A stretch of 39,682 nucleotides of DNA from contig JTLS01000035.1 in the NCBI GenBank assembly GCA_000826855.1, positions 1 to 39,682 of the forward strand, written 5' to 3'. The position numbers were made by a program, and so were the translations under genes. The notes under the pieces are model-generated. The model searched no databases. It was not told where the DNA came from and worked only from the letters and a program-made list of their open reading frames with translations. Shown in pieces: positions 32,903 to 38,629 of this stretch (positions are counted from its first letter, which is position 1; every line of letters begins with the position of its first letter). This stretch comes from Basidioascus undulatus (lineage: Eukaryota).

Positions 32903-33895
32903 GCGGGTGCTGATTAACGAGTGGTCGTCTTCTTCCTTCAGCTTTCCTGTTCATGTCCTTGTGCCTCACATAGATTAGCCTAATAATTCTGCCACGCCCT
33001 CTTCTTTTTCGTGTTTTGGCCCTGTCAGTCCCTGTTTGCAGCATTGGCCCGTTTGCATGCCATTAGCCGATGCCGTACTTCCGCTGCTGTGTTTGTGGAA
33101 CGCATAATACACAACTTGCTCTGCGTTTCGTCATGTTTAAAAGCGTACAGCTAACCTGTTTCCAAGTACACTGTTGTCATGATTCAATAGCATGGCAGGT
33201 CCTTTACATTTGCATCGTCAGTCCATTCGGACGATGTTGACCTTGTCGTTCAGTCCTGCCCTCGCTTTCTGCTAGCAATGAACCCCTCTAGGTAACTAGA
33301 ACCTTCACGAACAGACCATCAAAGCTAATATTCCGAGCAGATCTTTGATCTGTTCGGTTGGAACTGTAGTCCGGATGAGTCCAAAGAGGGCACCATCGAC
33401 GGTCACATCTCGAAACGAACTTGCAGAGGGCGGCAAAGGCGGTCCGGCCACATGATAAGGTTCATTCGATCGGCTTGAAAAGCGTGGCCCTGCTCAGCTG
33501 ATCAGCCTCCGCTCGATGTTTGCCTGAAGGGTTGGCATTCTGCGACGGAAACGACGACGGTCCGTTGTTTTCACAGGTGGAGCGTTGGGGTCCTCTCCTT
33601 AAAACTCACTCACTCGCCCCCCGGCCCCAACAGCTGTCCTCCGGACCGCCCAAATCAGCCCCCCCTTGAATATACGACCGTGCTCCCGCTCTCTCCGTCG
33701 ACCTCTGTGCTTCTCGCGTACTCTCGCACGAGGTCACACACCTCGAATGCGCACGAGGTTCGGGTCCATGGCGTGAACCCCCCCCCGGTCGTACAAGTGC
33801 CGCGACCTCCGCCCACACCTCATTTTTCTGCTCTGCCTGGTTTTACGCCACTCTCACGCATACACTCATACACATACACTTACGACGAGCACTAC

Positions 33896-36800
33896 ATGGG
33901 TTTTGGTTACAACATCGTTGTAGCGGTCTTCGCTGCGATCGGTGTGTCTTTGGCTCTCTTCAACCCGCCGGCAGCCCATTCTGACTGCATCAACACTGCA
34001 GGGGCGTTTTTGTTTGGCTGTATGTGTTGGTCTCCCCCTCGCACAGCAGATCAGATTGAGCTCATTTTGGCCTTGCACCGGGTGCTCAGACGACAGCGGT
34101 ATCATCACGAGCGTCATCTCGCCTGAGTGCGCAACTCCTGCCCGACAGCTTGGGGTGTATGCTTTCCCTGACCTCATTGCCGTTTTCCAGCTACCACGTC
34201 TTTCGGAGGGATTTCAATTCTCCTGGTGATGACCTGACTGGTGCAATAGGTACACATCGTGTCTGCAGCCTCTTTTCGCGAACGAGCTGACACACGTCGG
34301 TTAATTTCTCAGTTTCTGTCTTCGCCGGTGGATGTGAGGCAGTGCGCCACCCTGATCTGTTGAACCAATGCTGACTTCTATCGGTTACAGGTTTCTTCGG
34401 TGCTGGACTCGCGGGGTATTCAGCCAACCGCTTCGGGCGAAAGCGAACAATTCAGCTTGGATGTGCCATCGCTCTGCTGGGATGCTCGTCAGTCGTCGCC
34501 CGTCTCTTCCTGTATTTCGATCAGCCTCTGACCTCCGTCCTACTTACGAATTCAACAGGTTGCAAACTGGAGCGCAGTGAGTCCTTGCGAGTGTGCGCAT
34601 CGGATGTGTTCTCTGACGGCAGCCAACAGCAACATTGCGACGCTGCTCATTGGCCGCTTGATAACAGGATTCGCTATCGGAGTTCTATCTATGATTACTC
34701 CTCTCTACCAGTAAGTATCGTATACAAAACATGTTGCTGTCGATGTAGGCTGAGCGGGGACCACAGATCCGAAACCGCCCATCCCAAGTACCGCGGTTTC
34801 CTCGTCGGAACCACGCAACAGATGATCGGCGTAGGATTCATTACGGCCAACTGGATCGGATACGGGTGCCAGTACTTGGAGAACTCGGGGCAATATCGGT
34901 TGCCCCTCGGCATCCAGCTTATCCCGGCCGTCCTCCTCCTCGTCGGCATGCAGTTCTGCCCCTTCAGCCCTCGGTGGCGTGAGTGCTGGATCTCTCCTCC
35001 TAATGTGTCCGGATGGTTTAATTAATTTGTGCACAGTCATTGAACAGGGACGAGAGGAGGAAGCTCGTCGCGCGCTGACGAAGTTGCACGGCAACGGTAA
35101 AAATGACGAATGGCTTGACAAGGTGCGTTCAAGAAAGAATGGACAGCGTGTGTCCGCCGGCTGTCATTGAGTCCTTCTCCGATAGCAATTTACGGAGATG
35201 GTTGAGCAAATTCGGTACGAGAAGGTCAACGAGTCGCATAGCTGGAAGGAGTTGGTCAACACCCGCCCCATGCTCAGTACGCCGCCTTCCCGTACAGTTG
35301 ACGGCTCTTGGGTGGCGTTGACGAGACTCTCCTCAACTTCTGCAGAGCGAACATTGCTCGCATGCGGGGTGCAGATGTTTGGGCAATGCACAGGCAAGCC
35401 GATTCGTTTTCATAGAATGAAGATTGCACGCAACTTACCACGCAACTTACCACTTACAACGCGTTTCATTGGCGCATCAGGCATCAGTACGTTCTTTCAT
35501 GATACCACGAATGGCTTATTTTAGCGAATATAACCTGACCCGCCTTTCTACAGAGTGCGTGTGTCCTCGATTACTCAATTCCGTGCCGGATACTGACCGG
35601 ATGCTCGCTCGTCAGCTTCATCAAGTGCGTCCCAAAACTCTTATTCCCACTGCGGCGCACTGACGCACCAGATACCACAGCTACTACGGCCCGGAGATGT
35701 ATCGGCTATTGGGGATTCCAGAGGGAAGCGGACAATACCTTCTCATCACGGGAATCTAGTACGTCGTCACCGCGCTCTTGTCTGTCTGGATGAATGCGTT
35801 AACGGCAATGATCTTTCAGTGGTGTTGTTGGGCCTATCAGTACGTGGACCGATGCATCGTCCTCGAAGTCCACATAGACTGATCACGGCCCGTTGATAGC
35901 GAACTTCTTCTTGTGCGTAACCTGGAGCACAGCGCTGGTCATTCTCCAGCTCAAAGCCATTCCATCCCAGCATCACCTTCTTGATCGATCGAGTTGGACG
36001 GAAGATTCCCCTTGCGATTGGCAGCTTCGGCATCGCTGTCGCCCTTTCCGTGGAAGCTGCCATGTAAGTCAAGCTAAGCCCCCGTACTGCTTTCCTTGTA
36101 CTGACTGCAGTGGACAATTCGCGCGTAGCAACTCGGAGTTTGACCCGGAGAAGGAAGAAGAAGCTACCAATCTCGACGCCCAACGTGCCGGTGAGTTGCC
36201 TCGGAGGATTCTGGCATACTTCACTGCTGATAACGGTGGGGTCACCTTAGGCATCACGATGTGTACGTGTATCGCGAGACAGACGCCCTCGGCAGACCAC
36301 GGCTCACTGCTGGTCGCCTTCAGTCTTCCTAGCATCCATCATCTTTTCGATCTCGTACGGTCCCATCAGCTGGGTTTACGTGTCCGAGATCTTCCCGAGT
36401 ATGTCTTGCGATGTGTCTCTATCTCGTAGACATCCTGACCGTCTTTACTCGCAGTGCGTGTCCGAGCGCAGGGCAACGCAGTTGCGACGATGTGTAAGTC
36501 TTTCCGATTCTTGTCCCTTATATGCCAGTGCCGGATGCTGACTGTCTATGTAAAGCAAACTGGTGAGACAGGCTGTCGCAACATCTAAGGATCCTGCTGA
36601 TGGCTGTCGAGCAGGGCCTTGAATGTCCTCTTCGCTCAGACGGGTTTGCGAGGAATGAACGCTATTCGAGTGAGCACCTCCATCTCGATGATGTTCGCCA
36701 CTGTAAAGGTTCCAACTGACGCCCATTGCTTGAAAGTGGAAATTTTACTTGATCTGGGTCATTATCAACATTTGCGTGAGTGCTCCTCAAATAGTGGAGG

Positions 36801-37242
36801 TCTCCAATGCCGTCGCAGACTTATTTTCTCTGGCAGACTGGCCTCATCGGTGCGCAATCCAGCGCTTGTTTTCTTCGTATCCCTTCTCATCGGCACTTCC
36901 GCAGTCATTTTCTTCTTCGTCGAAACGAAGGGTGCGTACGATGCCCGGATGCAGTGCTTCGATGCTGGAGCTGACGCAATCTTTCCCGGAGTTCAACAGG
37001 TCGTACACTCGAAGGTCAGTTGTCTTGACTGCGGAGATTCTCAGAATTCCCAGCTGAAGCCCGGATATTCCTTATCGCCAGAAATGGACGCCCTTTTCGA
37101 CGACCAGAGGATCAGCCATGCTTTGGCCGACGGCCGTGCCTCTGGAATTGCTTCTGGAAGACTTACCAAGGCCGACTCGTTCAGCGATCTGTCCAAAGAG
37201 GCGGAGGTGCATACCGAGCATCATCAGAAGGGGGAGGTCTGA
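33896..37242 (+). CDS. MFS sugar porter (hexose/monosaccharide transporter family), about 30 exons
   Basis: Spliced product includes GAFLFGYDSGIITSVI, NRFGRKRTIQ, LQTGA, GRLITGFAIG, PLYQSETAHPKYRG, RLPLGIQLIPA, PFSPRWL, GQCTGINFINYYGP, IDRVGRK, ISYGPISWVYVSEIFPMRVRAQG, SNWALN and VETKGRTLEEMDALF. Confidence 0.95.
35554..35554 (+). other. Predicted single-nucleotide exon (A) of the sugar porter gene
   Basis: Context CTGAC...TTTCTACAG|A|GTGCGT. It is required to keep frame and to encode the Asn of G-I-N. Confidence 0.85.
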
Positions 37243-37485
37243 GGCCGTTGTATCATCCTTGATGTTGGTTGTAACGCATGTAATGCTTCTGGGTCACTCG
37301 TTTCACCTGCTCGAAAAGCTGTGTAGCATTCAACAAACGGGGCGGCCCAAGTCAACTTTCCATGTCGCAGTATATAACGCAAGGCGCAGGGCAAGCCAGC
37401 TACTGAACAAGCGCTACTGCCACCAAAACGTTGCACGTTCGTGCATCTCAAGTATGAATGAACGTCGCAAGGGTTTATGCCCAAA

Positions 37486-38629
37486 CTACATTTTCATGCG
37501 AACTTCGACACCCACCTTGTTCACCACCGTGAGGCTGCGTTCTTCCACTAGCTCTTTGAATCGAAGGAGATTTGTATCCGACAACGACAGGCTGTCTTTC
37601 ACCCGGAGGTACTGCAGCGCGGGCAGTTTATGCCGTGACAGTGCCGCCAGGCCCTATGAAGCTGACCGAGGATGCACTCGTCGAGGTGATCGTAATTGTA
37701 GCCGAGCGTCGTGACGGTCGAATGACTGAATTCAGCGACCCCATGGTTGGCGAGGAAGTACACGGAGAGCAGATCGAGTGCGGGGCAGGCACCCCGGAGG
37801 TCGCCAAGGCTAAGCCGTGCACAGAGGAGATACGGAGCGCTTCGAGCTTTGAGCCGATGGCATTGAGTAGATTGGCGAAGGAGTAGCCCGGGAATGTTTC
37901 AGGCTCAATGCAAGATCACGAAGTACGGGAAATCTGGAGCGAGACTAGCACTGCAATGTTGTAGCTTCGAAGGTCGATCCCAAGGGAGACGTCAAGAGCC
38001 TGCAAGTGCTGCAAATCGAGGCATGGCGTGAGGTAAGGCCCCCCAGGGTCGTCTGAATCAGCTGCCTCTTCAAGTAGGCGCAAGCGGGCCAAAGAGGCGA
38101 ATACGATGTTCGGGCGTGCGTAGGTGTGGAGGAAGAGTTTGCGAAGGTTGAGAACACTCGGGTTCAGGGTGAACCCGGCGATGAAGGCAATCGCCGAGAA
38201 AGTAATCAGCTCCTGTTAGGTCGAGGGAGCGAAGGCCAGTGAGGCAGCTGAGAACCATCAAGAGCTGTGCGTAGGTTCGAGGGAGATATACTTGGTCTCG
38301 AGACGCAGGTTCTCCACGGCTGTCAGCTGGCCGAAGCGATGGTGCCGCTGATGAGGTCAAGAATGAGGTCGGGCAGTAACGGCTTCTCGACTTGGATCGC
38401 AGGGTAGGGCGGCGACTCCCCGACGTCCTTGAACAAGGCAACACCAACAAGTCAGTATGCAGTGTTGATCCCATGACAGGACCCTTCTCGAAGCTACGTA
38501 CCCGCCACCGTCTACAAACCAGCAGTAGATTCAGCGCTGGCTGCTCAAAGTCGACACGGTAACGCCACACGCTGTCGGCGAGCACCAAGCCCAGGATTTT
38601 GCCGAGGATCTCGTTGGGATCTTGTCCAT
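37486..38629 (-). pseudogene. F-box / LRR-like protein pseudogene
   Basis: MDKIP/NEILGKILGLV...LNLLLVCRRWR|(GTACGT intron) is an F-box with a frameshift right after codon 4. Downstream LRR-like pieces (LTGLRSLDLTG, LQHLQALDVS, KLEALRIS, CPALDLLSV, KLPALQYLRV) fall in shifting frames with stops. Confidence 0.7.

What the first reader, a model, noticed from the sequence alone, without database searches (positions are those of the whole stretch)
35394..35680. Chain of 6-, 1- and 9-nt microexons opened by a GC-AG intron
Seen: four consecutive introns (35394-35480 with a GCAAGC donor, 35487-35553, 35555-35615, 35625-35680) enclose only 16 coding nt (GCATCA, A, CTTCATCAA) in 287 bp. They encode the substrate-binding helix 7 motif. 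Skipping the 6- or 9-nt exon would keep frame but delete motif residues; skipping the 1-nt exon would shift frame. Inference: this could act as a splicing-efficiency switch for transporter output.
Basis: partly seen in the sequence, partly recalled or inferred. Interest (0 to 1): 0.7.

Follow-up and report, generated by a model that had tools for sequence, protein, structure and literature searches.

The report
One-base exon in fungal sugar transporter
A fungal sugar-transporter gene appears to build its key sugar-gating stretch from three tiny exons of 6, 1 and 9 bases, an extreme case of a known feature of intron-rich fungi that is probably always spliced the same way rather than acting as a switch.

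Summary
A spliced alignment against 21 homologues, not given the coordinates, recovers all four introns exactly. The best route without a 1-nt exon scores 26 bits lower and loses an Asn invariant in 21 of 21 homologues. The gene is an intact 512-aa, 29-intron sugar porter, and the codon of the helix-7b Asn is split over three exons. The junctions are predicted, not seen in RNA.

The switch idea has little support. Three of the four introns have top-class splice signals. The GC-donor position is GT in 6 of 38 paralogues. Skipping removes motif residues or shifts the frame. Exon skipping is 0.5% of splice variants in Coprinopsis, which has 13 one-base exons (PMC12230235).

The best explanation is constitutive, one-at-a-time intron removal at a family-wide intron hotspot. 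This ten-codon window is the most intron-dense in this genome's sugar porters (32 introns against a mean of 8.8 per window). The chain is still tighter than any in 38 paralogues. Regulated retention of the weak, in-frame, stop-free GC intron remains possible (about 15%).

The parts
33896..37242 (+). Sugar porter gene (MFS, PF00083): 30 exons, 29 introns, 512 aa predicted
   Evidence: exon 34768-34977 hits PF00083 at E 7.9e-20; 60% identity to best full-length homologue P0031
35346..35393 (+). 48-nt exon: first half of helix 7, including the invariant Gln; ends in the first base of the Gly codon
35394..35480 (+). Intron 1, GC-AG, 87 nt: longest and weakest-donor intron of the gene, in frame and stop-free if retained (+29 aa, 7 Lys/Arg)
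   Evidence: same position is GT-AG in 6 of 38 paralogues
35427..35450 (+). Perfect 12-nt tandem duplication in intron 1, repeating its CTTAC-type branch candidate (a third copy at 35453-35457)
35481..35486 (+). 6-nt microexon; with the next base it repeats the 7-mer of the intron 1 acceptor, giving a second CAG 7 nt downstream until intron 2 is removed
35487..35553 (+). Intron 2, GT-AG, 67 nt, branch CTGAC at 35535-35539; phase 1 in the Asn codon
   Evidence: position shared by 1 of 38 paralogues and 10 of 72 metagenome loci of one clade
35554..35554 (+). 1-nt exon (A): middle base of the invariant Asn codon
35555..35615 (+). Intron 3, GT-AG, 61 nt, branch CTGAC at 35593-35597; phase 2 in the same Asn codon
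   Evidence: position in 0 of 38 paralogues and 0 of 72 metagenome loci
35616..35624 (+). 9-nt microexon
35625..35680 (+). Intron 4, GT-AG, 56 nt, branch CTGAC at 35660-35664; a nearer in-frame CAG at 35671 is probably too close to the branch
   Evidence: position shared by 3 of 38 paralogues of one clade
35681..35758 (+). 78-nt exon continuing helix 7b (Tyr-Tyr-Gly-Pro)

Best explanation
The three microexons are ordinary coding exons, always included, of an intron-rich basidiomycete sugar porter. SHOWN by computation: four complete short introns; the join restores the helix-7 motif in register; these ten codons are the most intron-dense window of the sugar porter family in this genome; this gene is among the most intron-rich members (6.1 introns per 100 codons, exceeded by 2 of 38 paralogues). 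INFERRED: each intron is recognised across its own length (intron definition) and neighbours are removed one after another, because two spliceosomes cannot sit on a 1-nt exon. The chain arose by piling up of introns at a hotspot: an old one in the Gly codon, others old or gained in parallel, and intron 3 probably the youngest or a 2-nt slide of the intron that the closest relatives carry just downstream. The GC donor is a tolerated variant of a GT donor. Every microexon ends in A, so each donor doubles as a decoy AG; only the 3'-to-5' order (4, 3, 2, 1) avoids all decoys, so the slow GC intron is predicted to leave last. The product is one transporter with an intact TM7b gating Asn.
For: Model recovered independently and robust to penalties. 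Gln, Gly, Ile and Asn are invariant in 21 of 21 homologues. Flanking signals are strong. Hotspot: 22 of 30 possible positions occupied against 33% background, permutation P=0.0005; with one representative per 45%-identity cluster, 32 introns against a mean of 8.8, reached in 0 of 3000 permutations. The GC-intron position is held as GT-AG by 6 of 38 paralogues in 4 lineages only 28-37% identical to each other, the second most shared of 451 positions. In three 99%-identical metagenome loci a helix-7 intron has GC in one and GT in two (could be a sequencing error). Two further frame-restoring 1-nt exon candidates lie in this genome (L090, L091). One of 24 removal orders has no competing AG within 12 nt. 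Precedent: 13 one-base exons and MFS microexon enrichment in Coprinopsis; constitutive APC11 exon; CYP621A spliced in several conditions.
Against: The junctions are predicted only. No close orthologue with DNA was found, so conservation of the chain is untested. Exons of 6 nt or less are about 8-fold depleted (6 of 599 against about 47), and the tightest three-exon run in 38 paralogues spans 32 nt against 16 here, so this chain is rarer than the nulls imply. Sharing of intron positions is near chance overall (11 of 29 shared with a paralogue; background 33%), so only the Gly-codon intron is well shown to be old. At the strictest clustering (15 representatives) the distinct-position hotspot test is not significant (P=0.125), although the total-count test is (P=0.0003). 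Intron density also tracks sequence conservation (rho 0.40). The genome-wide 1-nt pattern gave 4 hits against 2 in its control, and one hit (L093) is false. Cryptococcus sugar transporters are 2-3-fold enriched for alternative transcripts. The ordering prediction may not matter, since the first YAG at a usable distance from the branch appears to be used by default.
Confidence: 0.72

Rival explanations
1. The GC intron is a regulated bottleneck. It is removed last and slowly, and under some carbon sources it is retained. That puts 29 basic residues into helix 7 in frame, giving an inactive protein from an mRNA that nonsense-mediated decay cannot see.
For: It has the weakest donor (1.3 against a median near 8), a non-consensus branch and the greatest length of the 29 introns, and it is 3n and stop-free. 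Retained introns are 67.5% of alternative events in Coprinopsis. Sugar transporters are enriched for alternative transcripts in Cryptococcus. An in-frame alternative GT donor lies at 35406 (+4 aa).
Against: 4 of 29 introns in this gene and 78 of 637 in paralogues are 3n and stop-free. The donor has a compensating CAG exon end. The position is GT in all 6 paralogues that share it. Part of the extra length is a perfect 12-nt duplication. No special RNA structure (z=0.78).
Confidence: 0.15
2. Microexon-skipping switch: inclusion of the 6-, 1- or 9-nt exon is regulated, giving altered transporters or NMD substrates.
For: Frame logic permits it. A glucose-dependent microexon switch is reported for Trichoderma Xlr2 (abstract).
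Against: Flanking sites are strong. Skipping the 6-nt exon removes the invariant Gly-Ile-Asn, and skipping the 9-nt exon deletes three helix residues. Skipping is 0.5% of events in Coprinopsis. The APC11 one-base exon is constitutive, and the CYP621A one is spliced in several conditions.
Confidence: 0.04
3. The real junctions differ: one 125-nt intron (35491-35615) replaces introns 2 and 3, so there is no 1-nt exon, or the donor at 35406 or the acceptor at 35671 is the main one.
For: These routes are in frame and stop-free.
Against: They score 12.7-26.4 bits lower. The no-1-nt route replaces the invariant Asn, adds a residue, uses a poor donor and ignores a complete internal branch, acceptor and donor.
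Confidence: 0.06
4. The region is a nested twin intron (stwintron) or an assembly artefact rather than a set of true exons.
For: Stwintrons give introns 1 nt apart in fungi (abstract), and neighbouring positions 1 nt apart are common in this window. A single-base error could turn GT into GC.
Against: Each intron has its own uninterrupted donor, branch and acceptor, and the middle base is needed for the frame. The four introns resemble each other no more than other pairs in the gene. The 29-intron reading frame is intact.
Confidence: 0.03

Closest known systems
One-base and other microexons of Coprinopsis cinerea (PMC12230235; passages, section 9 and part of supplement 1 read)
   Same: Basidiomycete. 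13 exons of 1 nt in 13 genes, about 9% of genes with an internal exon of 15 nt or less, and MFS families enriched.
   Different: No run of three consecutive microexons or helix-7 location is described in what I read; supplement 1 was cut and one file was unreadable.
Fusarium CYP621A single-nucleotide exon (PMC12940212; parts 1-2 of 3 of the text read)
   Same: The 1-nt exon supplies the middle base of a codon in a conserved motif and is missed by annotation.
   Different: There the base is G, conserved in 20 orthologues and read-confirmed. Here it is A, has 6- and 9-nt neighbours and a GC-AG intron, and conservation is not shown.
Arabidopsis APC11 single-nucleotide exon (PMC4674806; passages read)
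   Same: Constitutive 1-nt exon; the authors propose intron definition with one-after-another removal.
   Different: A plant gene; described as a single one-base exon rather than a chain.
Trichoderma virens Xlr2 microexon switch (PMC11121469; abstract and outline read)
   Same: Fungal microexon linked to sugar use.
   Different: It yields two functional transcription-factor isoforms; skipping here would damage the transporter's gating helix.
Sugar porter family (GlcP, STP10, XylE, GLUTs)
   Same: PF00083; profile E 8.8e-75 to GlcP with the helix-7 motif aligned.
   Different: The first Gln of the usual Gln-Gln pair is mostly Gly, Thr or Cys in this subfamily; substrate not determined.

Membership tests
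Sugar porter (PF00083) | Pfam Sugar_tr match above the curated cut-off | tested here: met
   Window exon 71.6 bits against a cut-off of 22.3; homologue P0031 390.6 bits
Sugar porter (PF00083) | Helix-7 motif with the conserved TM7b Asn | tested here: met
   Equating it with GLUT5 N293 (passages) rests on the motif and the GlcP/STP10 alignments, not on a direct GLUT5 alignment
Sugar porter (PF00083) | Twelve-helix fold and sugar transport | not tested
   No model was built; activity cannot be tested here
Single-nucleotide exon (APC11/CYP621A type) | One base between two complete canonical introns | tested here: met
Single-nucleotide exon (APC11/CYP621A type) | Base required for frame and conserved motif | tested here: met
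Single-nucleotide exon (APC11/CYP621A type) | Junction confirmed in cDNA | not testable with these tools
   Needs transcript reads from this organism
Single-nucleotide exon (APC11/CYP621A type) | Conserved in orthologues | tested here: inconclusive
   0 of 72 metagenome loci and 0 of 38 paralogues; of the 12 metagenome loci compared, the closest is 58% identical
U2-type GC-AG intron | GC donor with otherwise good consensus, at a position held by GT-AG introns in relatives | tested here: met
   CAG|GCAAGC; 6 of 38 paralogues with GT. The compensation rule is recalled
Stwintron | An internal intron interrupts the donor, branch or acceptor of an external intron | tested here: not met
   Flanks inspected against the definition in the abstract of PMC5587772
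Regulated microexon switch (Xlr2 type) | Condition-dependent inclusion | not testable with these tools
   Needs RNA from several conditions
Regulated microexon switch (Xlr2 type) | Skipped form gives a plausible second functional protein | tested here: not met
   Skips lose invariant residues, delete three helix residues or shift the frame; loss of function is inferred

The most novel reading that the evidence does not exclude
The chain is an ordered splicing relay. Each A|GT donor is a decoy acceptor for the intron before it, so the four introns must leave 3' to 5'. The weak GC intron acts as a final, carbon-responsive gate whose in-frame retention switches the transporter off without NMD. 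It would sit in a helix-7 window that attracts introns across the fungal sugar porter family.
Probability: 0.1. Interest if true: 0.7.

Novelty: new member of a known kind. Interest (0 to 1): 0.36.

Why it matters
One codon, for the residue reported to couple sugar binding to gating in all sugar porters, would be assembled from three exons. That makes this a compact natural test of how a spliceosome handles four introns separated by 16 exonic bases, and in what order. It also matters for annotation: the deposited model of a Microbotryomycete homologue (P0074) lacks 57 residues here and resumes at the exon after intron 4. The helix-7 intron hotspot offers a tractable case for studying intron gain, sliding and GT/GC exchange in conserved motifs.

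Tried and rejected
RNA evidence: no RNA holder listed for window:33800-37300, so no reads were laid; this says nothing about expression. Exhaustive enumeration of splice chains timed out and was replaced by forbidding sites. A 30th intron (37136-37198) proposed was rejected as a tail artefact; the frame is open to the stop at 37242. Special RNA structure: none (z=0.78). Origin of the introns by copying one another: pair scores are ordinary among 406 pairs. Recent gain of intron 1, suggested by a 6-nt repeat at its two ends (longest of 29), was set aside because the position is old. Close orthologues: the best exon identity was 73% and 69% among cluster representatives. The permutation test on metagenome loci is invalid because the loci are related. 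Paralogue set: L100 (66-aa fragment) and L009 (same contig as L118) were dropped, leaving 38. L093 was rejected as a 1-nt exon because the frame reads on. L090 and L091 could not be confirmed by homologues: searches were blank; Pfam placed L090 in Na_Ca_ex and gave nothing for L091; C1357 was not among the GH28 hits. The 2-nt pattern (4 hits, 3 in control) was not followed. Literature searches (listings only, except the papers named) showed no fungal chain like this and no helix-7 intron hotspot; the library lacks most subscription papers. Earlier scan findings: none.

Full report
Setting. The finding lies in a plus-strand gene at 33896-37242 of an intron-rich fungal genome (32.1 Mb, 2992 contigs). 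One intact exon (34768-34977) matches Pfam Sugar_tr, and its best homologues are basidiomycete sugar transporters at up to 73% identity. The lineage was not determined; donor usage and GC content recall Microbotryomycete yeasts (recalled, untested).

Checking the observation. The four introns and three exons are at the stated coordinates. I wrote a spliced aligner that allows a codon to be split by two introns and gave it a profile of 21 homologues and hand-set splice probabilities. I had seen the gene's donors when setting them, but the coordinates were not supplied. Ten runs that forbade sites scored 12.7-21.5 bits lower, and all still held a 1-nt exon. The best route without one uses a poor donor at 35491, scores 26.4 bits lower and replaces an Asn present in 21 of 21 homologues. 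The scores are uncalibrated, and no transcript was seen.

What is encoded. The 16 bases complete six codons of helix 7. The motif aligns with that of GlcP and STP10. The Asn whose codon is split over three exons corresponds, by motif, to the TM7b Asn. PMC10322154 (passages) describes that residue as strictly conserved and as coupling sugar binding to the outer gate. Skipping the 6-nt exon removes it, skipping the 9-nt exon deletes three residues, and skipping the 1-nt exon or retaining intron 2, 3 or 4 leads to a stop. Retaining intron 1 adds 29 residues in frame, 7 of them Lys or Arg.

How unusual it is. The gene has 8 internal exons of 15 nt or less, against 7.0 expected from uniform placement. 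Under that null a 1-nt exon has P=0.42 and four introns within 16 nt P=0.064. I modelled 38 paralogue loci from the same genome (637 introns). In them, exons of 6 nt or less are depleted (6 of 599 against about 47) and none is 1-2 nt. The tightest three-exon run spans 32 nt. In the ten-codon helix-7 window, 5 paralogues have no intron, 19 have one, 13 have two, 1 has three and none has four. The chain is therefore a true extreme, but of a continuous distribution.

A helix-7 intron hotspot. That window is the most intron-dense of 44 in the paralogues: 22 of 30 positions are occupied against a 33% background (permutation P=0.0005). With 28 cluster representatives it holds 32 introns against a mean of 8.8 (0 of 3000 permutations). 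With 15 representatives the total-count test holds (P=0.0003) but the distinct-position test does not (P=0.125). Density correlates with conservation (rho 0.40), yet other equally conserved windows are far poorer. Weighting the null by this density raises P(four within 16 nt) to 0.26, or 0.15 with a 1-nt exon.

Ages of the four introns. Intron 1's position is shared by 6 of 38 paralogues in four lineages 28-37% identical, all with GT donors. A read-through in a Rhizoctonia model fits the same position (P0024; inferred from protein). Intron 2's position occurs in 1 paralogue and 10 of 72 metagenome loci of one clade. Intron 4's occurs in 3 paralogues of one clade, and a Phenoliferia model resumes at the exon after it. 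Intron 3's position occurs in none, but five loci of the nearest subfamily have an intron 2 nt downstream. Position sharing is near chance overall (11 of 29), so only intron 1 is well shown to be old; introns 2 and 4 may be parallel gains.

Mechanism. Introns 2-4 have near-maximal donors and maximal branch-acceptor scores; intron 1 has the gene's weakest donor. Intron definition with one-after-another removal is the inferred route, as proposed for APC11 (PMC4674806, passages). Because each microexon ends in A, each donor forms a decoy AG 7, 2 or 10 nt after the true acceptor, and 1 of 24 removal orders (4-3-2-1) avoids all of them. This is a prediction, not a finding. In paralogues the skipped YAGs mostly lie within 8 nt of the branch (34 of 40), which suggests the first usable AG wins regardless of order.

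Regulation. For it: intron 1 is weak, long, 3n and stop-free; Cryptococcus sugar transporters are enriched for alternative transcripts (PMC3990503, passages); and a glucose-dependent microexon exists in Trichoderma (PMC11121469, abstract). Against it: stop-free 3n introns are common (4 of 29 here, 78 of 637 in paralogues), GC donors make up 16 of 637, and GC and GT alternate at one helix-7 intron among 99%-identical loci. The region has no special fold, and skipping is 0.5% of events in Coprinopsis. I put regulated retention at 0.15 and a skipping switch at 0.04.

Other 1-nt exons here. A strict pattern found 4 sites in the genome against 2 in its control: this one, L090, L091 and a false hit, L093. 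L090 lies in a Na/Ca exchanger gene and L091 in a stretch that recalls a GH28 motif (recalled; no tool hit). In both, the single base restores a plausible frame. The pattern's recall is about 6%, so the genome may hold tens of such exons (49 if all three are counted; very rough).

Comparison and novelty. Coprinopsis has 13 one-base exons and MFS enrichment for microexons (PMC12230235: passages, section 9, part 1 of supplement 1; unread supplements may list chains like this). Fusarium CYP621A has a read-confirmed 1-nt exon in a conserved motif (PMC12940212, parts 1-2 of 3). The region is not a stwintron by the definition in PMC5587772 (abstract). My searches listed no fungal 6-1-9-type chain and no helix-7 hotspot. 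Verdict: real, a new and extreme member of a known kind, most likely constitutive; interest 0.36.

Noticed in passing
G000 paralogue loci L003-L008, L010, L094-L125: Introns pile up in the helix-7 motif (22 of 30 positions) and next in the helix-1 and helix-2 windows (19 of 30 each) across 38 sugar porter paralogues.
   Followed up: yes
L090 (G000:C1220:3349-3429, minus strand): Candidate 1-nt exon (T) in a Na/Ca exchanger gene; removing the 142 nt as a single intron would break the frame.
   Followed up: partly
L091 (G000:C1357:5683-5749, minus strand): Candidate 1-nt exon (G) after a 19-nt exon, completing a Cys codon in a stretch that recalls a GH28 motif; family not confirmed.
   Followed up: partly
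G000 C869:1119-1195, C2177:16668-16739, C2326:15873-15954, C2526:11788-11877: Four candidate 2-nt exons by pattern, against three in the control.
   Followed up: no
L020:1348-1401, L021:1782-1835, L026:118-171: The same helix-7 intron has a GC donor in one and GT in two loci that are 99% identical in protein.
   Followed up: partly
L005 (G000:C2426): A paralogue has its own helix-7 chain of 18-, 9- and 7-nt exons at different positions.
   Followed up: partly
window 33747-33776: A 9-codon upstream ORF, with an internal ATG at 33768, ends about 120 nt before the transporter start; whether it is transcribed is unknown.
   Followed up: no
window 36556-36562, 36251-36262, 35900-35912, 36837-36849, 37000-37014: Further microexons of 7, 12, 13, 13 and 15 nt in the same gene; two introns end in AAG (36555, 36736).
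   Followed up: partly
P0074, P0024, P0063, P0033, P0021, P0119: Deposited models of several homologues are broken in or around helix 7, by read-through or omission.
   Followed up: partly
window 33001-38000: GC content is 52-55% here against 58-69% over much of the rest of the window; the gene's GC3 of 0.66 is at the low end of paralogues.
   Followed up: no
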